A DNA stretch of 7,174 nt, from IMG/VR virus record IMGVR_UViG_2700989544_000016; one strand, given 5' to 3'. Shown in pieces: positions 933 to 6,781 of this stretch. A program made the position numbers and the translations under genes. Under the pieces are notes generated by a model that had not been told where the DNA came from, did not search any database, and worked only from the letters and a program-made list of their open reading frames with translations. The stretch comes from a virus. Taxonomy: Duplodnaviria > Heunggongvirae > Uroviricota > Caudoviricetes. Each line of letters begins with the position of its first letter. The stretch's first letter is position 1.

Positions 933-1124
933 TTAAAGTCCTGCCGGTATTTCGTTATTATTAGTGTGAGTAGTTTTATCTACCGGATAACAGTTACCGG
1001 GAATTTTTTGTTCTGCTGCTGCAGCCATGCATTCTTTCATTGAACCGTATAAGCCAGTCACCAGCTCAAGAGATTCGCCGGAAACAAGATAAACTGTCAG
1101 AACGAGTGCAAATGTTGTATTCAT
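933..1124 (-). CDS. Small protein (63 aa) with a hydrophobic N-terminal segment (MNTTFALVLTVYLVSG) and 2 Cys; function unknown
   Basis: ATG at plus 1122-1124 overlaps the stop of the upstream gene as ATGA (translational coupling). AAGGA Shine-Dalgarno 8 nt upstream. Track ORF 933..1124. Confidence 0.55.
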   Translation of the reverse strand: MNTTFALVLTVYLVSGESLELVTGLYGSMKECMAAAAEQKIPGNCYPVDKTTHTNNNEIPAGL

Positions 1125-1309
1125 TGTTTATATCCTTTTTGCAGCAGGTCCAGACGAGCCAGCATTGAAGGAATGCATACTTCATTTAACAGGTCCTGCT
1201 CGAGTTTTCTCTGCTTAATGGCGTCTTCAATAAATGTTTTGTCTCCAGTGATAACGCCAATTTCGAAACGAAGTTCAGACGTGCTGGCATTACATGATAA
1301 CTTTTCCAT
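1121..1309 (-). CDS. Small early protein (62 aa), possibly Kil-like host cell-division inhibitor (tentative)
   Basis: ATG at plus 1307-1309 preceded by GAGGA 7 nt upstream. Protein MEKLSCNASTSELRFEIGVITGDKTFIEDAIKQRK... The F.I..I.GD.K.F.E.A pattern resembles my recollection of lambda Kil, which I cannot verify. The 97-aa track form starts at a GTG with no RBS and is less likely. Confidence 0.5.
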   Translation of the reverse strand: MEKLSCNASTSELRFEIGVITGDKTFIEDAIKQRKLEQDLLNEVCIPSMLARLDLLQKGYKQ

Positions 1310-1785
1310 TATCGCGTCCTCAACAATGAATTTTGTGATGCGGTGCCTAGTGCCTCCAGGTGACGTTAACCAGTTAACAATTAACGCCGGATACAGAGAA
1401 TCCACCCATAACACTGTTTTTGGTTTTAACTGTTCCGCGTGCGCTGAGCCGCATTCACCGCATCACAAAATTCACTTTTAAAAAAGGGCGGCAGAGCAGT
1501 CACGGAGTAAAACTGATACTGCCAAATGTCACCAGAATATTGATAACAGAGGGCGTTGTAGCGGGGTTGTCACTTAAGCGTATGGTCAACCTGACAACCC
1601 GGTGTCCTCAACTGGGGAAGGAATAACCCCGCCATACTTACCGCCGCGCCATTTCGCGGATTGCCACAACCGGAAGCGCACGTTCGAAGAAATCTAACGA
1701 CAAGCCTTCTAAGGGAAAGAGCTTCGCCGTACGCTTTCGCGTTGTGTGCCTGCTTTTAACCACGTCAGGCGAGGTGGTTTCCGTC

Positions 1786-1814
1786 GTTCCCCAACGACAG
1801 GAAATCTGTATAAT
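1786..1814 (+). promoter_or_regulatory. Putative plus-strand promoter for the small-ORF/membrane-protein insert: TG-TATAAT -10 with a weak -35, overlapped by a palindrome
   Basis: Perfect TATAAT at 1809-1814, immediately preceded by TG (1807-1808). The -35 position (1786-1791, GTTCCC) is poor. Inverted repeat GTCGTT-CCCC-AACGAC at 1783-1798 overlaps the -35 zone. Confidence 0.3.
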
Positions 1815-1847
1815 CTGGATATCCCCAACAACAGGAAGGTGTTTTAT

Positions 1848-2006
1848 ATGGTGGTTCAAAAGAATTGTTCAGGTACTGGTAAGCCTGCGGACAGGTCGGA
1901 CATTCCGAATACCAGGAAACATATACCTGAGAAAAACATTCGACCAAAACCATCTCCAGCTCCTTCAGAGGAGAGGGGGAACAGCAACAATCAAACAAGC
2001 AGGTGA
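1848..2006 (+). CDS. Small basic, low-complexity protein (52 aa), possibly the leader gene of the insert operon
   Basis: ATG at 1848-1850 with a strong AGGAAGG Shine-Dalgarno (1833-1839, 8-nt spacing). Its TGA (2004-2006) lies inside the RBS of the next gene. Translation MVVQKNCSGTGKPADRSDIPNTRKHIPEKNIRPKPSPAPSEERGNSNNQTSR. Coding status uncertain. Confidence 0.35.
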   Translation: MVVQKNCSGTGKPADRSDIPNTRKHIPEKNIRPKPSPAPSEERGNSNNQTSR

Positions 2007-2012
2007 TGATAT

Positions 2013-2459
2013 ATGGACCGGGATGATATTCTTGACAGGGTTTTATATGGTTATTTTCTTGAACAACTATTCTCTGTAGCGACTGGTCGTCTCGATAAAC
2101 TTCTCTCAGTGGTGAGTATTATCCTCGGTTCATCTGTCATTGGTGGATTTATTCCTGAAGTTTCTGGAGTTCTCATTGTTGTGATAGCAACCGTTCAAAC
2201 GATTTACGGATTCGGACAAAAGTCAGGTAACGCAATGAGAAAATCCGCAGAATATCTGCAGCTTTATGATGATGCAGAAAAATATTCCGATTCGGAATTG
2301 AAAATGCAGTTAAAGCTCCTGGAAAAAACAGATGATAATATTTGGTCGTCGCTTAAAGATATCGCAATCTTAAAAACCCAGATCAAAATAGGAATCTCCG
2401 TAGAACAACAAGAGAAACTGTCTGCAAAATCCAAATTGATGCGATTCCTTTGTGGTTAG
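2013..2459 (+). CDS. Two-transmembrane-helix protein (148 aa); candidate superinfection-exclusion / abortive-infection protein, in the position SieB occupies in Rac
   Basis: ATG 2013 with AGGTGA (2001-2006) 6 nt upstream. Two adjacent hydrophobic segments (LLSVVSIILGSSVIGGFI and VSGVLIVVIATVQTIYGF) followed by a charged C-terminal domain. Visibly AT-rich relative to flanks. Opposite strand to the surrounding early-left genes. Confidence 0.6.
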   Translation: MDRDDILDRVLYGYFLEQLFSVATGRLDKLLSVVSIILGSSVIGGFIPEVSGVLIVVIATVQTIYGFGQKSGNAMRKSAEYLQLYDDAEKYSDSELKMQLKLLEKTDDNIWSSLKDIAILKTQIKIGISVEQQEKLSAKSKLMRFLCG

Positions 2460-2574
2460 GAATACCCAGATTGTTAAAGAGCATGCCGGATGCTTACCCG
2501 TGTCCGGCGAACGTATTCCACTTCGCCTGTGGAGAACTCTTTAATTACTAACCTTCATCAGTCAGAGTTTCTTG

Positions 2575-2709
2575 CTAACCAGCGACGCGCGCCAGCTTCC
2601 GTTTTAAACGTTTTGCTTCTGGTAACGTCATCGCGGTGAACGTGCCGTCCAGGTTGGGGAATACTCCGCATACCAGAGATTCGTTGTTGCCAAGATTGAG
2701 CATATCCAT
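2575..2709 (-). CDS. Small ORF (44 aa) MDMLNLGNNESLVCGVFPNLDGTFTAMTLPEAKRLKRKLARVAG; possibly YdaG/YdfB-like small prophage protein (tentative)
   Basis: ATG at plus 2707-2709 with GAGGT 4 nt upstream; stop TAG at plus 2575-2577. Below the ORF-track length cutoff. Lies downstream of the minus-strand promoter at 2890-2917. The family assignment rests on memory only. Confidence 0.35.
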   Translation of the reverse strand: MDMLNLGNNESLVCGVFPNLDGTFTAMTLPEAKRLKRKLARVAG

Positions 2710-2889
2710 GTTGACCTCATTTACCCTTAACGCCGGGTCGCGGAACTAAAAACCTGCTGCGCTGTTATACAAAGTGTTCCCGCCGTCATGTTCTTACGCC
2801 TCGGGCTGGCTACTTAACCCCTGACCACTGCCTGGTAACTCTAGGTATTGCCCTGCGTTCTGTGGGGCGGAGTGGGTTGGTAAAATCAG

Positions 2890-2917
2890 TTTATACAAAA
2901 ATAAACTAAACAGTCAA
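2890..2917 (-). promoter_or_regulatory. Strong sigma70-like promoter on the minus strand (TTGACT, 16-nt spacer, TATAAA), positional analogue of lambda pL
   Basis: On the minus strand: -35 TTGACT (plus 2912-2917), 16-nt spacer, -10 TATAAA (plus 2890-2895) preceded by TG. Lies immediately downstream of the terminator hairpin of the repressor/TA operon and fires leftward. Confidence 0.4.
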
Positions 2918-2946
2918 TATTTAACTTAACTCTTTGGCAAGAATAA

Positions 2947-2962
2947 CCCCTCTTGAGAGGGG
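2947..2962 (-). terminator. Intrinsic terminator-like hairpin ending the repressor/toxin-antitoxin operon
   Basis: Perfect 6-bp GC-rich stem CCCCTC/GAGGGG with a 4-nt loop, 10 nt after the toxin stop. On the minus-strand transcript it is followed by UUAUUCUUG. Confidence 0.5.
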
Positions 2963-2972
2963 CTTAGGGGGA

Positions 2973-3260
2973 TTAAGGTGTTACAGGGAACTGTCGGCGG
3001 GCGTGAACTACGTTAACAATTTCAATGCCTGAAATTGTCACGCGGTACAGAATGATGTAATTGGGGTGAGCTACAATTTCACGCAAACCAGGCACTCTGT
3101 CGCTTGGCGGGTATAAATACGGATGTTCAGATAATGGCAGGACGCAAGTCCTTAAGCGTTTCCACAAACGTTCTGCCGCATCTATGTCAAAACGTGCAAT
3201 ATAGCTGGTTATATTATCTAGGTCGGCATCTGCGCTTTCGAGCCATAAAACCGGTAACAT
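2973..3260 (-). CDS. parE: Type II toxin, RelE/ParE superfamily (ParE-like), 95 aa
   Basis: Track ORF 2973..3260. The sequence MLPVLWLESADADLDNITSYIARFDIDAAERLWKRL...REIVAHPNYIILYRVTISGIEIVNVVHARRQF matches the conserved layout of ParE/RelE toxins. The start abuts the antitoxin stop. Confidence 0.85.
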   Translation of the reverse strand: MLPVLWLESADADLDNITSYIARFDIDAAERLWKRLRTCVLPLSEHPYLYPPSDRVPGLREIVAHPNYIILYRVTISGIEIVNVVHARRQFPVTP

Positions 3261-3452
3261 TTACTGTTTGCTCCGTTCCTTGCGCATGTTAGCAAAGCGT
3301 TCAGCCATTCTGCGTTCAACTTCGTCATGGGGAATGGCTGGACGTGGATCAGCAAGGCTTGCGGCCACTTTTGCACGCAGCCATTCGTTATAACTATTTT
3401 CTTGCTCGACGGTTTCAAATTCAGAAACCATTGGTGAAAGGGCCGTGTTCAT
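3261..3452 (-). CDS. paaA: Small antitoxin (63 aa) cognate to the ParE-like toxin, PaaA2-like
   Basis: Sits immediately upstream of the toxin and is adjacent to it. Size, order and charged C-terminal half fit PaaA-type antitoxins of three-component paaR-paaA-parE modules (from memory of E. coli O157 prophages). GAGG lies 9 nt upstream of the ATG at plus 3450-3452. Overlaps the regulator gene end by 32 nt. Confidence 0.7.
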   Translation of the reverse strand: MNTALSPMVSEFETVEQENSYNEWLRAKVAASLADPRPAIPHDEVERRMAERFANMRKERSKQ

Positions 3453-3882
3453 GGTGAACCTCGTCTTGTAAGTGCTGGTAATCCTGCCTAGGAACTTTTT
3501 GTTGTGCTGCTAGCCACTTTGCAACTATACGATCCATTGTCTCTTTTTTCTCTTTCATATCTTTAAGCATTTGCTGTTGCTCTTCCTCTGGAAATGCCTC
3601 AAATGTTTGAAGTAGTTCCTTTTGCGTAGGGGTTATTTTTAATATATCCTGTGCCCTGTCCTTATTTTCTTCATTTAATGGTAAGAAAAACCAATACTGA
3701 GGAAATCCAGTCACATCAGATAGTTTATCTAGGTTGGCTGCTGTAGGGCTTGAGATGCCACAAGCCCACCTTTGGACGGATTGTTGAGCAATACCAATTC
3801 TGCGCGCAAGTTCTGCTTGGCTCCAGCCTTTTGCCAATAGAAGCATCTTAATTCTAAGAGCACTAATTTCGAGTACGCCCAT
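3421..3882 (-). CDS. paaR: HTH_XRE transcriptional regulator (153 aa), PaaR-like / DicA-like, paralogous to the adjacent repressor
   Basis: N-terminal helix-turn-helix (SQAELARRIGIAQQSVQRWACG). The central segment ITPTQKELLQTFEAFPEEEQQQMLKDMKEKKETMDRIVAKWLAAQ is clearly homologous to the C-terminus of the neighbouring repressor. No LexA-type peptidase domain. Confidence 0.8.
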   Translation of the reverse strand: MGVLEISALRIKMLLLAKGWSQAELARRIGIAQQSVQRWACGISSPTAANLDKLSDVTGFPQYWFFLPLNEENKDRAQDILKITPTQKELLQTFEAFPEEEQQQMLKDMKEKKETMDRIVAKWLAAQQKVPRQDYQHLQDEVHHEHGPFTNGF

Positions 3883-3912
3883 CTGATATCTCTTGTTTTA
3901 GTAAGTATCCCG

Positions 3913-4284
3913 TCAGGCTCGGCGACCCTGCCGCGCCAACCAACGTGCAACAAGATCTTCCATTGCCTCTTTTTTGTTTCTTAGCTCTTTTATGATTTCC
4001 TGCTGCTCAGCGTCAGGAAAAGCACTAAATATTTGCAACAATTCCAATTGGTTAGGCGTTAATGCCATAGTTCTTGATGACGGAGATTCTGTTGTATCTT
4101 CAGGTTCCATATCAAGATACCCCCCAGGCATCCCATATGTTTGCTCAATACGTCTAGCTGCCTTTTCGCCAAACGTAGCTTTACCGCTCATTAACTGAGA
4201 TAAGTAACTTTTCTCTTTAGGCGGCAAAGTCCTGTCTTTGAACCACTCTTTGAGGCGTAAACGCCGAATCTCTTTTGTTTCCAT
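3913..4284 (-). CDS. Prophage repressor (123 aa), DicA/RacR-like, lacking an S24 peptidase domain
   Basis: Sits at the divergent promoter region opposite the cro-like gene. N-terminal phage-CI-type HTH (KEKSYLSQLMSGKATFGEKAARRIEQTYGMPGGYLD). C-terminal LTPNQLELLQIFSAFPDAEQQEIIKELRNKKEAMEDLVARWLARQ resembles my recollection of DicA. No SD before the ATG, consistent with a leaderless transcript. Confidence 0.8.
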   Translation of the reverse strand: METKEIRRLRLKEWFKDRTLPPKEKSYLSQLMSGKATFGEKAARRIEQTYGMPGGYLDMEPEDTTESPSSRTMALTPNQLELLQIFSAFPDAEQQEIIKELRNKKEAMEDLVARWLARQGRRA

Positions 4285-4290
4285 ACATGC

Positions 4291-4370
4291 ATTATCTTTA
4301 GTAATCGCAAAACAAGCAAATGCTTGACTGGTTTATTTAGTTGCGAATAAACTCTTGCTTGTTCTAAATG
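4291..4370. promoter_or_regulatory. Divergent promoter/operator region of the genetic switch
   Basis: Inverted repeats AACAAGCAA (4311-4319) / TTGCTTGTT (4355-4363) and TCGCAA (4305-4310) / TTGCGA (4341-4346); palindrome CAAGCA-AA-TGCTTG (4313-4326). Rightward -35 TTGACT (4324-4329) with a weak -10 (ATAAAC, 4347-4352). Leftward -35 TTGCTT (plus 4314-4319) and -10 GATAAT (plus 4291-4296), ending 6 nt before the repressor ATG. Confidence 0.5.
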
Positions 4371-4386
4371 TGCTGAGATAAAAATT

Positions 4387-4668
4387 ATGACGCTAAAGGA
4401 ATTCATCAAATCATTAAAAACTGGAGAAGCAAAAAAATTTGCGACCAATCTTGGTGTGTCTCCGTCTTTCTTGTCCCAAATGGCATCTGGAACTTCACCT
4501 GTGTCTCCTGTTCGTGCGTTGATGATAGAAGCAGAAACTGGGGGACATGTTACAAGACGAGAATTGAGACCTAATGACTGGGAGCTTATATGGCCCGAAT
4601 ACACGGGAATCACGTCCCCTTCACGTCACAAATATGAACTTAACACCAAAAAGGCTGATGGAGGTTGA
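4387..4668 (+). CDS. Cro-like HTH protein (YdaS-type), 93 aa
   Basis: Divergent from the repressor. The N-terminal sequence KKFATNLGVSPSFLSQMASG reads as an HTH. Track ORF 4387..4668. Weak RBS. Confidence 0.7.
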   Translation: MTLKEFIKSLKTGEAKKFATNLGVSPSFLSQMASGTSPVSPVRALMIEAETGGHVTRRELRPNDWELIWPEYTGITSPSRHKYELNTKKADGG

Positions 4669-4671
4669 TTC

Positions 4672-5097
4672 ATGAAAATCAAGCATGAGCACATCCGCAT
4701 GGCGATCAATGCTTGGGCCTATCCGGACGGTGAGAAAGTTCCTGCAGCTGAAATAGCCCGGACTTATTTCGAACTGGGGATGACGTTCCCTGAACTGTAC
4801 GACGATACTCATCCAGGCGCTCTGGGTCTTAATACCCAGAAGATTTTCCGCTGGGTAAAGAAAGATACTCCTGATGCCGTTGAAAAAATGCAGGCTCTGT
4901 TACCAGCTATCGAAAAAGCAATGCCGCCTCTGCTGGTGGCCCGAATGCGCAGCCACAGTTCCGCTTATTTTCGGGAGTTGGTAGAGACGAAGGAACGGCT
5001 GGTGAAAGATATTGATGATTTCGTTGCATCAGCGATCGTTCTGTTCGATCAGATGAATCGTGGTGGCCCGGCAGGAAACACTCTGGCTGTGCATTAA
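4672..5097 (+). CDS. YdaT-like protein (141 aa), probable functional analogue of CII
   Basis: ATG 4672 with a strong GGAGG (4660-4664, 7-nt spacing), 3 nt after the cro-like stop. Position after cro, and the MKIKHEHI... start, match my recollection of YdaT-family proteins; unverified. Confidence 0.55.
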   Translation: MKIKHEHIRMAINAWAYPDGEKVPAAEIARTYFELGMTFPELYDDTHPGALGLNTQKIFRWVKKDTPDAVEKMQALLPAIEKAMPPLLVARMRSHSSAYFRELVETKERLVKDIDDFVASAIVLFDQMNRGGPAGNTLAVH

Positions 5098-5110: not shown

Positions 5111-5620
5111 ATGAGTAATGACAAAAAATTGACACTGAGCGTTTACGAAAACAGTCCGCACATCTGGCGTGGCGGTTTATCTGATGTGGAGCTGGCAGAG
5201 TGGTTGATACATAAAGCTAATGCGCTGCTCTGGCGTTTGTCAGCCAGAGAACAGCGCAAGGAAACCAGAATAAAGCTGGCTGATGCAGAAGCGTGTGCCG
5301 GGCTTATTGAGGATTATACAAATCTTGGTATTTCTTCAGCAGAGAGTGATCCCATTCAGCCTCTGAGCAGGGAGTCAATCCAGCACGCTGGTTGTATGGC
5401 ACATCTTGTAACTGCTCGTCAACATGAGGTGGGTATTGGATCACTTCCGGTGGGATATTCGATGATTCCAGAGCTGGTTGAAGCAAGAAAATCAGTTCAG
5501 AAAAAGAGAGATGACGCACTTCAATTATTGAGAGAGCACTATGGCGCGATACCAGAATGCGAACAGCGTCGATACCCTGAAGGTTATGAATGGATGCAGT
5601 CTCTTTTTGAAGTTCGCTAA
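5111..5620 (+). CDS. Hypothetical protein (169 aa), unrecognised, between the CII-like gene and the replication gene
   Basis: ATG 5111 lies 13 nt after the previous stop, with a weak RBS. The track ORF 5060..5620 begins at a GTG overlapping the upstream gene. Composition is coding-like. No motif recognised. Confidence 0.55.
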   Translation: MSNDKKLTLSVYENSPHIWRGGLSDVELAEWLIHKANALLWRLSAREQRKETRIKLADAEACAGLIEDYTNLGISSAESDPIQPLSRESIQHAGCMAHLVTARQHEVGIGSLPVGYSMIPELVEARKSVQKKRDDALQLLREHYGAIPECEQRRYPEGYEWMQSLFEVR

Positions 5621-5837
5621 TCAATATGTCGAGACGAAGGTATGTTTCGGCGCGCAGCCAGGCTCTGTAATCCGGGAGCATTTCGGGGCTGTTACACCAG
5701 CGGTTTGTTGCTGCAACATTTAATACATGAGCCTGATAAAGGCTTTTCAAAAAATACATGTCGAACCTCCTCTGGTTCTGTCGATTGGGAACCACAGATT
5801 ATATCCGGAGGAAGGTTCGGCACCAGATGAGGTAGCC

Positions 5838-6670: not shown

Positions 6671-6781
6671 NNNNNNNNNNNNNNNNNNNNNNNNNNNNNN
6701 NNNNNNNNNNNNNNNNNNNNNNNNNNNNNNNNNNNNNNNNNNNNNNNNNNNNNNNNNNNNNNNNNNNNNNNNNNNNNNNNN
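6671..6781. other. Assembly gap (111 N)
   Basis: A run of n characters. True length and sequence are unknown, so frames cannot be carried across it. Confidence 0.95.

What the first reader, a model, noticed from the sequence alone, without database searches (positions are those of the whole stretch)
2947..4370. ParE-type toxin-antitoxin module embedded as cargo in the lysogeny repressor operon
Four co-oriented, closely packed genes (repressor 3913-4284, paralogous regulator 3421-3882, antitoxin 3261-3452, ParE toxin 2973-3260) run from the switch region to one hairpin terminator. The regulator-antitoxin overlap and the abutting antitoxin-toxin junction suggest co-transcription from the repressor promoter. 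This mirrors cI-rexA-rexB in lambda, where an abortive-infection system rides on the immunity transcript. Three-component paaR-paaA-parE modules are known from E. coli O157 prophages, so the module itself is probably not new; its coupling to the switch repressor is the point worth testing (addiction or anti-phage function expressed only in lysogens).
Basis: partly seen in the sequence, partly recalled or inferred. Interest (0 to 1): 0.5.

Follow-up and report, generated by a model that had tools for sequence, protein, structure and literature searches.

The report
Toxin-antitoxin pair in prophage repressor operon
This is the lysogeny-switch region of an E. coli lambda-like prophage in which the known PaaA2-ParE2 toxin-antitoxin pair is carried on the repressor transcript, as already published for prophage CP-933P; the one unusual feature is a second, apparently target-less repressor gene between the repressor and the antitoxin.

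Summary
They are an ortholog of the CP-933P/Sp12 repressor PaaR2 (3913-4284), a second regulator of the PaaR1 family (3421-3882, here "reg2"), PaaA2-type antitoxin (3261-3452) and ParE2-type toxin (2973-3260). They end at a hairpin terminator. The published circuit is conserved at sequence level: a leaderless PRM, a PR and PL that share the same hexamers, divergent ydaS-ydaT, and an exact YdaT operator. The coupling of this toxin-antitoxin (TA) pair to the switch repressor, and the cI-rexAB analogy, were shown experimentally in 2021-2023 (PMC8630535, PMC9986795). The core finding is therefore already known.

What differs is reg2. The four-gene layout occurs in 17 of 5426 complete E. coli genomes and has a single origin. 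Reg2 is under purifying selection (dN/dS 0.13-0.39). It has no promoter of its own, no partner cro gene, and no operators of its family in the window or in 46 kb of one host prophage. Its overlap with paaA comes from a lineage-specific frameshift tail.

Best reading: a CI-type immunity operon carrying an addiction module plus an orphan second repressor. That repressor probably acts in trans, giving heterotypic immunity, but this is inferred, not shown. It is a minor new variant of a known system.

The parts
2888..2917 (-). PL-like promoter with operator-like sequence. It is leftward and lies downstream of the TA operon. TTGACT is at 2917-2912 and TAAACT at 2893-2888.
   Evidence: Promoter scan. 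A 30-nt inverted repeat with PR (I1). The sequence is almost identical to the OL/PL of the three-gene locus L002, and its layout matches that of Sp12. A PL with hexamers identical to PR is described for CP-933P in PMC8630535.
2945..2964 (-). Intrinsic-terminator-like hairpin that ends the repressor-TA operon
   Evidence: an 8-bp stem, AGCCCCUC/GAGGGGUU, followed by AUUCUU. Hairpins of different sequence occupy the same position in L002 and L003.
2973..3260 (-). parE, a ParE2-type toxin of 95 aa
   Evidence: Pfam ParE_toxin E=4.6e-16. PDB 5cw7_B ParE2 E=2e-55. 90% aa identity to Sakai Sp12 ParE2 and 67% to ParE1. dN/dS 0.03-0.25.
3261..3452 (-). paaA, a PaaA2-type antitoxin of 63 aa with no DNA-binding domain
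   Evidence: Pfam PaaA2 E=1.1e-20. PDB 3zbe E=1.3e-34. 94% aa identity to Sp12 PaaA2 and 63% to PaaA1. dN/dS 0.02-0.06. It has its own GAGG Shine-Dalgarno sequence 6 nt upstream.
3421..3882 (-). reg2, the extra PaaR1-family repressor paralog. It has an HTH_3 domain and the PaaR-type helical C-terminal domain. The last ~25 aa are a frameshift-derived tail.
   Evidence: Pfam HTH_3 E=7e-12. 53% aa identity to PaaR1, 61% to the L003-type switch repressor and 35% to PaaR2. Absent from the three-gene locus L002. dN/dS 0.13-0.39. AlphaFold2 model: HTH pLDDT 82-91, tail below 50.
3883..3912 (-). 30-nt spacer and junction between paaR2 and reg2. No promoter; at most a weak AAGAG ribosome-binding site.
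   Evidence: No promoter hit. All four-gene lineages share the same junction, with an 11-nt indel (spacer 19-34 nt), which indicates a single origin.
3913..4284 (-). paaR2-like switch repressor, the CI analog (123 aa), leaderless
   Evidence: PDB 7nkv/8c3l 'phage repressor protein CI', which is the PaaR2 N-domain, E=1.6e-31. 77% aa identity to Sp12 PaaR2. dN/dS 0.06-0.28.
4291..4319 (-). PRM-like promoter. TTGCTT is at 4319-4314, then a 17-nt spacer, then GATAAT at 4296-4291. The ATG lies 6 nt after the -10, which implies a leaderless mRNA.
   Evidence: Sequence positions. The hexamers and spacing are the same as in Sp12, where 5' RACE and N-terminal sequencing proved leaderless paaR2 (PMC8630535).
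4324..4353 (+). PR-like promoter for ydaS-ydaT (TTGACT, 18 nt, TAAACT), overlapping operator repeats
4387..4668 (+). ydaS, the Cro analog
   Evidence: Pfam YdaS_toxin E=1.3e-9. 67% aa identity to Sp12 YdaS. Its function was shown for CP-933P in PMC8630535.
4665..4682 (+). YdaT operator OM (TTGATTCATGAAAATCAA) at the ydaS/ydaT junction, the site of the PRE-like promoter that feeds the repressor operon
   Evidence: Exact match to TTGATTN6AATCAA. The motif and its position are from PMC9986795.
4672..5097 (+). ydaT, the CII analog
   Evidence: Pfam YdaT_toxin. phrog_163 'CII-like transcriptional activator' E=7e-44. 82% aa identity to Sp12 YdaT.

Best explanation
The region is the immunity (lysis-lysogeny switch) region of a Rac/CP-933P-type lambdoid prophage of E. 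coli.

Proposed mechanism, inferred by orthology:
- In the lysogenic state a leaderless transcript starts at PRM (4291-4319). After infection a YdaT-activated PRE at 4665-4682 does the same.
- This transcript runs through paaR2-like, reg2, paaA and parE to the hairpin at 2945-2964.
- PaaR2-like is the CI analog. It represses PR (ydaS-ydaT, the Cro and CII analogs) and PL through related operators on both sides.
- PaaA2 is an unstable antitoxin that neutralises ParE2. Cells that lose or silence the immunity region are therefore poisoned (addiction). Any anti-phage role is untested.

All of this was shown experimentally only for the CP-933P ortholog.

The added gene, reg2, is a complete PaaR1-family repressor. 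It was left behind, or captured, when a paaR2-ydaS-ydaT immunity cassette was joined just upstream of the start codon of an older repressor-paaA-parE unit. Reg2 has lost its own leaderless promoter, operators and cro partner, and is now expressed from the PaaR2 promoter.

Reg2 is kept intact by selection but has no recognisable binding sites in cis. The most likely role is therefore as a trans-acting second immunity repressor, giving the lysogen heterotypic immunity against, or cross-control of, PaaR1/L003-type lambdoid phages.
For: Identity of the parts.

Conservation of the circuit:
- The PRM hexamers, spacing and ATG position are the same as in Sp12.
- PR and PL share hexamers and operator-like sequence.
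- The YdaT site is an exact match.
- No promoter was found between 2973 and 4284 apart from weak intragenic matches at chance level (4 found, 3.1 expected).

Experimental basis in the ortholog: PMC8630535 and PMC9986795.

Reg2 as an insertion or relic junction:
- The three-gene form of the same allele lacks exactly window 3454-3912 and has the canonical paaR2-paaA spacer.
- In L003, L004 and Sp4, the homologous HTH_3 repressor is itself the switch repressor. It faces its own ydaS-like and ydaT genes and is followed by paaA-parE.

Reg2 is functional:
- The ORF core is intact in all seven loci read in full, and none of the 17 genome hits is annotated as a pseudogene.
- dS reaches 0.43 with dN/dS 0.13-0.39. 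Binomial p is 2e-6 to 7e-3 against neutrality.
- The recognition helix QQSVQRW is invariant.

Reg2 is an orphan:
- PaaR1 has five perfect ACA-N9-TGT operators with A/T-rich spacers at its OL and OR. The L003 type has the ACAC-N7-GTGT family.
- None of these occurs in the window or in 46 kb of the host prophage.
- Proteins at least 85% identical to reg2 occur only in the four-gene layout.

Precedent for an acquired extra repressor giving heterotypic immunity: mycobacteriophage Mcgavigan (PMC12700041).
Against: - No expression, toxicity, immunity or DNA-binding data exist for this variant. Everything mechanistic is transferred from an ortholog whose repressor is only 77% identical, whose Cro analog is only 67% identical, and whose operator half-sites differ.
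- For reg2, the Shine-Dalgarno sequence is weak or absent.
- Its C-terminus varies by frameshifts (131, 132, 139 or 153 aa), and one lineage has a codon deletion in helix 1.
- Its dN/dS is about twice that of paaR2.
- No phage with a closely matching repressor or operator set (above 67% identity) was found that it could target. The operator specificity of reg2 is inferred only from conservation of the recognition helix with the L003-type repressor.
- The pairwise dN/dS values are not independent, and recombination occurs among these loci. L013's 3' end is L003-like.
Confidence: 0.7

Rival explanations
1. Reg2 is a non-functional relic of an immunity-region swap. It persists only because it is sandwiched between the repressor and an addictive TA pair, so any imprecise deletion that lowered PaaA expression would kill the cell.
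For: - It has no own promoter, operators or cro partner.
- It has a weak or absent ribosome-binding site and a variable spacer.
- Its frameshifted, variable C-terminal tails are modelled with pLDDT below 50.
- Its dN/dS is higher than that of neighbouring genes.
- The TA locus was shown to be addictive in CP-933P (PMC8630535).
Against: - Linkage to a TA pair cannot by itself produce codon-level purifying selection. dN/dS is 0.13-0.39 and significantly below 1 in five pairs of lineages within the four-gene layout.
- There is no premature stop or frameshift within residues 1-128 in any of the seven loci read.
- The recognition helix is invariant.
Confidence: 0.2
2. Reg2 acts within its own switch. 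It forms mixed oligomers with PaaR2 through the shared C-terminal domain, or titrates an antirepressor that targets that domain. Either would change the set-point of the bistable switch and the level of TA expression.
For: - The two proteins share the PaaR-type C-terminal domain (25 of 45 identical, with invariant ELLQ.F.AFP...KKE.M...W.A).
- PaaR2 forms octamers in solution (PMC8630535).
- Both proteins would be made from the same mRNA.
- Distant relatives include the Gifsy-1 and Gifsy-2 repressors (38% identical). From my own knowledge, not checked here, these are controlled by antirepressors.
- A fused double-HTH relative exists (P0027), so combining two DNA-binding modules in a single repressor also occurs in this family.
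Against: - No hetero-oligomer evidence was obtained, because the tools fold single chains only.
- At 56% identity, the C-terminal domain is no closer to PaaR2 than expected for different immunity types (22-26 of 45 among the other types).
- OR and OL in four-gene loci are the same as in the three-gene locus, so nothing in cis has adapted to a second DNA-binding domain.
Confidence: 0.1
3. The TA pair on the repressor transcript is primarily an abortive-infection or anti-phage system expressed in lysogens, a functional equivalent of rexAB, rather than an addiction or stabilisation module.
For: - It occupies the position of rexAB (PMC9986795).
- The slot downstream of the repressor holds other toxin-like cargo in relatives, namely HipA_2 plus DUF3037.
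- It would be expressed only in the lysogenic state, by analogy with PMC8630535.
Against: - There are no PADLOC matches for PaaA or ParE.
- In CP-933P no ParE2 activation was seen in either transcriptional state, whereas plasmid stabilisation (addiction) was demonstrated (PMC8630535).
- No phage-challenge data exist.
Confidence: 0.15
4. The TA genes, or reg2 together with the TA genes, form an independent transcription unit with their own promoter, unconnected to lysogeny.
For: Weak promoter-like matches occur inside paaR2 (4115-4086) and inside parE (3241-3213). PaaA has its own Shine-Dalgarno sequence.
Against: - Those matches score 9 of 12 and their number is at chance level (4 found, 3.1 expected).
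- The 19-34 nt spacer before reg2 is too short for a promoter, varies in length and contains none.
- In the ortholog the three genes were shown to be a single operon transcribed from the promoter upstream of paaR2 (Hallez 2010, as summarised in PMC4803016; PMC8630535).
Confidence: 0.05

Closest known systems
paaR2-paaA2-parE2 (RAE2) locus and ydaS-ydaT immunity region of E. coli O157:H7 prophage CP-933P / Sakai Sp12 (Hallez 2010; Jurenas 2021, PMC8630535; PMC9986795)
   Same: - The gene order and orientation match.
- The toxin is 90% and the antitoxin 94% identical.
- The repressor has the same length and architecture (77% identical; N-domain about 90%).
- The leaderless PRM has the same hexamers and spacing.
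- PR and PL share hexamers.
- The YdaT operator sits at the ydaS/ydaT junction.
- A terminator follows parE.

   Different: - An extra 462-bp gene, reg2, lies between paaR2 and paaA.
- The repressor/Cro pair is a distinct allele: 74% nt identity, YdaS 67% aa, and several operator half-sites differ. This allele is found in only 19 of 5426 genomes, against about 593 for the canonical one.
paaR1-paaA1-parE1 of CP-933M / Sakai Sp4 (ECs1069-1067)
   Same: - Reg2 has PaaR1's architecture, an HTH_3 domain plus the same C-terminal domain, and is 53% identical to it.
- The window's prophage backbone is Sp4-like on both sides (90-100% nt identity) and, in strain OkiPb01713, sits at the same yccA-side integration site.

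   Different: - In Sp4, PaaR1 is the only repressor. It faces its own cro-like gene and has five ACA-N9-TGT operators.
- In the window, reg2 has none of these, and the TA pair is type 2, not type 1 (63-67% identical to PaaA1 and ParE1).
L003/L004-type prophages (E. coli JNEC-KY171 and A19): PaaR1-like repressor followed by a PaaA2/ParE2-type TA pair
   Same: - These carry the closest stand-alone relatives of reg2 (61-66% aa), with a nearly identical recognition helix (QQSVQKW against QQSVQRW).
- Window 1205-3819 aligns continuously with L003 at 86.6% nt identity.

   Different: - There the repressor is leaderless at its own OR, with CACTTWWAAAGTG-type operators at both OR and OL.
- In the window, OL and OR are PaaR2-type and those operators are absent.
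Lambda cI-rexA-rexB
   Same: Lysogen-expressed cargo is co-transcribed with a leaderless repressor gene from PRM and PRE, between OR and OL. The analogy is stated in PMC8630535 and PMC9986795.
   Different: The cargo is a type II TA pair, not RexAB. The repressor lacks the S24 peptidase domain and is not SOS-cleavable (PMC8630535). A second repressor gene is present.
Acquired 'Bxb1-like' second repressor of mycobacteriophage Mcgavigan (PMC12700041)
   Same: A temperate phage carries an additional repressor of another immunity type. This repressor is not needed for the phage's own lysogeny.
   Different: It is an unrelated protein family in an unrelated host. In Mcgavigan, heterotypic immunity was demonstrated by deletion. 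Here it is only inferred.

Membership tests
paaR-paaA-parE three-component type II TA (Hallez 2010) | ParE-family toxin | tested here: met
   Pfam PF05016 E=4.6e-16 over the full length. 90% identical to ParE2, whose structure is solved.
paaR-paaA-parE three-component type II TA (Hallez 2010) | PaaA-family antitoxin without a DNA-binding domain, immediately upstream of parE | tested here: met
   Pfam PF21217 PaaA2 E=1.1e-20. 94% identical to PaaA2. The stop codon abuts the parE start.
paaR-paaA-parE three-component type II TA (Hallez 2010) | A separate PaaR regulator gene upstream in the same operon | tested here: met
   Both a PaaR2 ortholog and a PaaR1-family paralog are present. That makes four genes, not three.
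paaR-paaA-parE three-component type II TA (Hallez 2010) | Single sigma-70 promoter upstream of paaR driving all genes | tested here: inconclusive
   The sequence shows a conserved PRM and no credible internal promoter. Transcripts were not measured.
paaR-paaA-parE three-component type II TA (Hallez 2010) | Toxicity of ParE, specific neutralisation by the cognate PaaA, and ClpXP/ClpAP-dependent post-segregational killing | not testable with these tools
   Only very low dN/dS (0.02-0.25) supports retained function.
CP-933P-type lambdoid immunity region (Jurenas 2021) | Leaderless CI-analog gene: the -10 element lies 6 nt before the ATG | tested here: met
   The sequence reads TTGCTT, 17 nt, GATAAT, 6 nt, ATG at 4319-4284, identical in layout to Sp12. 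The transcription start was not measured.
CP-933P-type lambdoid immunity region (Jurenas 2021) | Divergent ydaS (Cro analog) and ydaT (CII analog) across a ~100-bp operator region | tested here: met
   The intergenic region is 102 bp. There are Pfam YdaS and YdaT hits, plus a PHROG hit to a CII-like activator.
CP-933P-type lambdoid immunity region (Jurenas 2021) | A PL downstream of the TA pair with the same hexamers as PR and related operators | tested here: met
   Both carry TTGACT, 18 nt, TAAACT, and the two sites form a 30-nt inverted repeat at 77%.
CP-933P-type lambdoid immunity region (Jurenas 2021) | YdaT operator TTGATTN6AATCAA at the ydaS/ydaT junction (PRE) | tested here: met
   Exact match at 4665-4682.
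CP-933P-type lambdoid immunity region (Jurenas 2021) | Bistable, heritable expression states; repression of PR and PL by the repressor | not testable with these tools
   This needs reporter or single-cell experiments.
Acquired second repressor giving heterotypic superinfection immunity (e.g. Mcgavigan) | Intact DNA-binding repressor of a different immunity type, maintained by selection | tested here: met
   HTH_3 E=7e-12. dN/dS 0.13-0.39. Invariant recognition helix.
Acquired second repressor giving heterotypic superinfection immunity (e.g. Mcgavigan) | Not needed for the phage's own switch: no cognate operators or cro in cis | tested here: met
   No PaaR1-type or L003-type operators occur in the window or in 46 kb of the host prophage. 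OR and OL equal those of the three-gene locus. This test assumes reg2 keeps the family's operator pattern.
Acquired second repressor giving heterotypic superinfection immunity (e.g. Mcgavigan) | Existence of target phages carrying matching operators | tested here: inconclusive
   L003-type prophages exist within the set of 119 genomes whose reg2 match is 60-80% nt identical. Their repressor is only 61-66% identical to reg2, although the recognition helix is nearly identical. No stand-alone repressor at 85% identity or above was found.
Acquired second repressor giving heterotypic superinfection immunity (e.g. Mcgavigan) | Loss of immunity on deleting the gene | not testable with these tools
   This needs a phage-challenge experiment.

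The most novel reading that the evidence does not exclude
Reg2 is a working, trans-acting orphan repressor that a PaaR2-type prophage expresses from its own PRM together with an addictive TA pair. One transcript would then carry self-immunity, immunity against a second (PaaR1/L003-type) lambdoid immunity group, and an addiction module that locks the package in place. On this reading the four-gene locus is a natural trace of the immunity-cassette exchange that Jurenas et al. proposed the TA pair polices. It would also show that such swaps keep the TA pair and can stack repressors.
Probability: 0.3. Interest if true: 0.5.

Novelty: new variant of a known kind. Interest (0 to 1): 0.3.

Why it matters
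The headline of the finding is a toxin-antitoxin pair riding on the prophage repressor transcript, as rexAB does in lambda. That is already established experimentally for the orthologous CP-933P locus, so confirming it here adds little.

The modest added value is comparative:
- The same PaaA2/ParE2 pair is linked to at least four different repressor arrangements. Repressor and TA alleles are therefore shuffled while the TA pair is always retained. This fits the published idea that the TA pair stabilises the immunity region.
- One small lineage has stacked two repressors of different immunity types on a single transcript. It comprises 17 of 5426 complete E. coli genomes plus a few metagenome contigs. 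The second repressor is kept under purifying selection.

If that second repressor confers heterotypic immunity, it would be an enterobacterial example of 'immunity stacking'. That would bear on competition among the many co-resident lambdoid prophages of Shiga-toxin-producing and enteropathogenic E. coli (STEC/EPEC).

Tried and rejected
1. Hypothesis: the hybrid prophage needs both repressors because its OR is PaaR2-type and its OL is of the reg2 type. Rejected. The window's OL/PL is almost identical to that of the three-gene PaaR2-type locus and unlike L003's OL.

2. Search for reg2-type operators. All of the following found nothing:
- ACTTTWWAAGT with up to 1 mismatch.
- ACA-N9-TGT with an A/T-rich spacer.
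- L003-type core patterns across the window, L001 and L018.
Two 1-mismatch sites at 5716 and 5747 lie in sequence shared with Sp4 and were judged to be chance.

3. A perfect 9-bp inverted repeat inside parE (3016-3038, ACAATTTCA-N5-TGAAATTGT) was considered as a possible operator. It has the wrong spacing for the family, is absent from one four-gene lineage (L013), is 8 of 9 in the three-gene locus, and about 0.4 such repeats are expected by chance. Not pursued.

4. An internal promoter for reg2 in the 3' end of paaR2 or in the spacer. None was found, and the spacer carries an 11-nt indel among lineages.

5. Read-through fusion of PaaR2 and reg2. The two ATGs are in the same frame in the window, but an in-frame TAA lies in the spacer, and other lineages have a 19-nt spacer. 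Rejected.

6. A stand-alone phage with a repressor at least 85% identical to reg2. None was found among 5.8 billion protein clusters or 50,697 phage records.

7. PADLOC gave only generic HTH matches and nothing for the TA pair.

8. Structure search of the reg2 model returned only generic HTH_XRE or SinR-like folds.


Full report
**Observation**

- The second and third overlap by 32 nt.
- The third stops (TAA, 3261-3263) directly against the ATG of the fourth (3260).
- The first two are 30 nt apart.
- An 8-bp G+C-rich hairpin followed by AUUCUU lies 8 nt after the last stop (2945-2964).

**Identity of the genes**

- The last ORF is a ParE toxin (Pfam E=4.6e-16). It is about 90% identical to ParE2, whose crystal structure is solved (5cw7, E=2e-55).
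- The 63-aa ORF is a PaaA2 antitoxin (Pfam E=1.1e-20; PDB 3zbe E=1e-34). It is 94% identical to Sakai Sp12 PaaA2 and 63% to PaaA1.
- The first ORF has no Pfam hit. Its N-terminal 63 residues match the solved N-terminal domain of PaaR2, deposited as 'phage repressor protein CI' (7nkv, 8c3l), at E=1.6e-31. Over its full length it is 77% identical to Sp12 PaaR2 and has the same length, 123 aa.
- The second ORF ('reg2', 153 aa) has an HTH_3 domain (E=7e-12). It is 53% identical to PaaR1 of Sakai Sp4/CP-933M, 61% to a related switch repressor (L003) and only 35% to PaaR2.
- The two regulators share a C-terminal helical domain (25 of 45 identical), so 'paralogous' is correct.
- On the plus strand follow ydaS (4387-4668) and ydaT (4672-5097).

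**Genomic setting**

The window is 100% identical to a defective lambdoid prophage next to yccA in E. coli OkiPb01713. The one difference is that the OkiPb01713 copy has an IS3 element in ydaT. Outside the immunity region the backbone is Sp4-like.

**What is already known**

Jurenas et al. 2021 (PMC8630535) showed the following for CP-933P:
- paaR2-paaA2-parE2 lies in the immunity region.
- PaaR2 is the functional CI analog and is translated from a leaderless mRNA.
- YdaS and YdaT are the Cro and CII analogs.
- PRM, PR, PL and a YdaT-activated PRE exist.
- The locus is bistable and addictive.

PMC9986795 states outright that paaA2-parE2 'replace rexA and rexB' and defines the YdaT operator TTGATTN6AATCAA.

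The window conserves these elements at sequence level:
- TTGCTT, 17 nt, GATAAT, 6 nt, ATG (4319-4284), as in Sp12.
- A PR (4324-4353) and a PL (2917-2888) with identical hexamers and a 30-nt related operator stretch.
- An exact YdaT site at 4665-4682.

The 'coupling to the switch repressor' is intrinsic to the known system, because PaaR2 is itself the switch repressor.

**What differs: the extra repressor**

- The canonical Sp12 locus, and the three-gene form of this same allele (L002, strain STEC17-183), lack exactly window 3454-3912. They have the canonical paaR2-paaA spacer.
- In other prophages (L003, L004, Sp4) the HTH_3-type homolog of reg2 is itself the switch repressor. It is apparently leaderless, faces its own ydaS-like and ydaT genes, and is followed by paaA-parE.
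- The window therefore looks like a join of a paaR2-ydaS-ydaT cassette onto an older 'repressor-paaA-parE' unit, just upstream of that repressor's start codon.
- All four-gene loci share this junction, with an 11-nt indel, so the arrangement arose once.
- The window's paaR2 allele is in 19 of 5426 complete E. coli genomes, 17 of them with reg2. The canonical allele is in about 593.
- Proteins at least 85% identical to reg2 were found only in this four-gene context, including metagenome contigs.

**Is reg2 alive?**

- The seven loci read in full, representing six distinct lineages, diverge at synonymous sites by up to dS=0.43. Residues 1-128 of reg2 stay open in all of them, with dN/dS 0.13-0.39. 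For comparison, paaR2 gives 0.06-0.28, paaA 0.02-0.06 and parE 0.03-0.25.
- The deficit of non-synonymous changes is significant in every pair tested (binomial p=2e-6 to 7e-3).
- The recognition helix QQSVQRW is invariant.
- Everything after ...WLAAQQK varies through 1-2 nt indels, giving products of 131, 132, 139 or 153 aa.
- The 153-aa tail that overlaps paaA in the window is modelled with pLDDT below 50.
- No promoter is detectable before reg2. The ribosome-binding site is weak.

**Does reg2 have targets in cis?**

- PaaR1 in Sp4 has five perfect ACA(A/G)-N7-(C/T)TGT sites with A/T-rich spacers at its OL and OR. The L003 type has ACAC-N7-GTGT/GTTA sites.
- None of these occurs in the window or in the 46 kb of the OkiPb01713 prophage.
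- The window's OR and OL are essentially those of the three-gene locus.
- My first idea, that reg2 controls a heterologous OL, was refuted by this comparison.
- Reg2 is thus an orphan repressor, expressed (by inference) from PRM and PRE.

**Mechanism proposed**

Steps shown by sequence:
- The gene identities.
- The promoter, operator and terminator layout.
- The absence of internal promoters.
- The orphan status of reg2.
- Purifying selection on reg2.

Steps inferred by orthology with CP-933P:
- A leaderless PRM transcript covers all four genes.
- PaaR2-like represses PR and PL.
- YdaS and YdaT act as Cro and CII.
- PaaA/ParE acts as an addiction module.

Step inferred without direct support: reg2 acts in trans as a second immunity repressor against PaaR1/L003-type lambdoid phages. 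Its recognition helix is nearly identical to that of the L003-type repressor. An acquired extra repressor with exactly this role has been demonstrated in mycobacteriophage Mcgavigan (PMC12700041).

My confidence that the operon is a CP-933P-type immunity operon is above 0.9. My confidence in the trans-immunity role of reg2 is about 0.3-0.35.

**Rivals**

- Relic only (0.2). This is contradicted by codon-level selection but supported by the sloppy C-terminus and the weak ribosome-binding site.
- Hetero-oligomerisation with PaaR2, or antirepressor titration through the shared C-terminal domain (0.1). PaaR2 forms octamers, but the hypothesis could not be tested here.
- The TA pair as an abortive-infection system rather than an addiction module (0.15). 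There is no PADLOC hit, and no toxin activation was seen in CP-933P.
- An independent TA promoter (0.05).

**Comparative note**

PaaA2/ParE2-type pairs (87-95% identical) are linked to four different repressor arrangements. In a further relative, the slot after a fused double-HTH repressor holds HipA_2 plus DUF3037 instead. The position downstream of the repressor is thus a cargo slot. The TA pair is retained through immunity swaps, in line with the stabilisation hypothesis of Jurenas et al.

**Verdict**

The locus is a new four-gene variant of a known system, and the function of its added repressor is open. Interest is low to moderate (0.3).

Noticed in passing
window 1486-1537 (-) and 1121-1309 (-): A DicF sRNA (Rfam RF00039, 69 bits) and a DicB cell-division inhibitor (Pfam E=3.6e-38) lie downstream of PL. 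The leftward early operon of this prophage therefore carries the dicBF-type division-inhibition cassette.
   Followed up: partly
window 2013-2459 (+): A 148-aa ORF runs in the opposite orientation between PL and dicF. It has a hydrophobic N-terminal half. Its only match is PHROG 6315 (unknown function), with no Pfam or PADLOC hit. It is present in L003 but not in Sp4 or Sp12, so it is a possible moron or exclusion gene.
   Followed up: partly
L015 4001-6360, L016, L017 (metagenome contigs): A 244-aa relative (P0027) fuses an extra CI-like HTH domain to a complete PaaR1-like repressor and sits at the switch position. Its downstream cargo is HipA_2 plus DUF3037 instead of paaA-parE. The slot after the repressor therefore takes different toxin-like modules.
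   Followed up: partly
L010 7366-7405 and 8376-8439 (Sakai Sp4): PaaR1's likely operators can be read directly from the sequence. There are five perfect ACA(A/G)-N7(A/T)-(C/T)TGT sites, two at OL and three at OR, resembling 434-type ACAA operators. I did not look for a published description of them.
   Followed up: partly
window 3016-3038 (inside parE): A perfect 9-bp inverted repeat, ACAATTTCA-N5-TGAAATTGT, is conserved in five of six four-gene lineages and is 8 of 9 in the three-gene locus. It is probably coding-constrained or due to chance.
   Followed up: partly
window 6671-6781: A run of 111 N (masked bases) lies inside the replication-gene region. ORFs listed across it are artefacts.
   Followed up: no
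L001 14217-15430 and L018 (E. coli OkiPb01713): In the genome with the 100% match, ydaT is split by an IS3 element that the window lacks. That prophage is defective: its head genes are missing and it carries IS66. It also carries the type III effectors nleL, espN and espK.
   Followed up: partly
window 5304-5759 (-): An ECs1072-family phage-associated gene lies on the minus strand between ydaT and the replication genes. It has no Pfam, PHROG or PADLOC match. It is shared with Sp4.
   Followed up: no
NZ_CP148435.1 4238667-4239037 (hit H94/H7): In strain Z1323CEC0012 the paaR2-like gene aligns over 371 of 372 nt, which suggests a 1-nt deletion. The annotation there reads 'Cro/CI family transcriptional regulator', so paaR2 may be frameshifted or re-called in this four-gene locus.
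   Followed up: no
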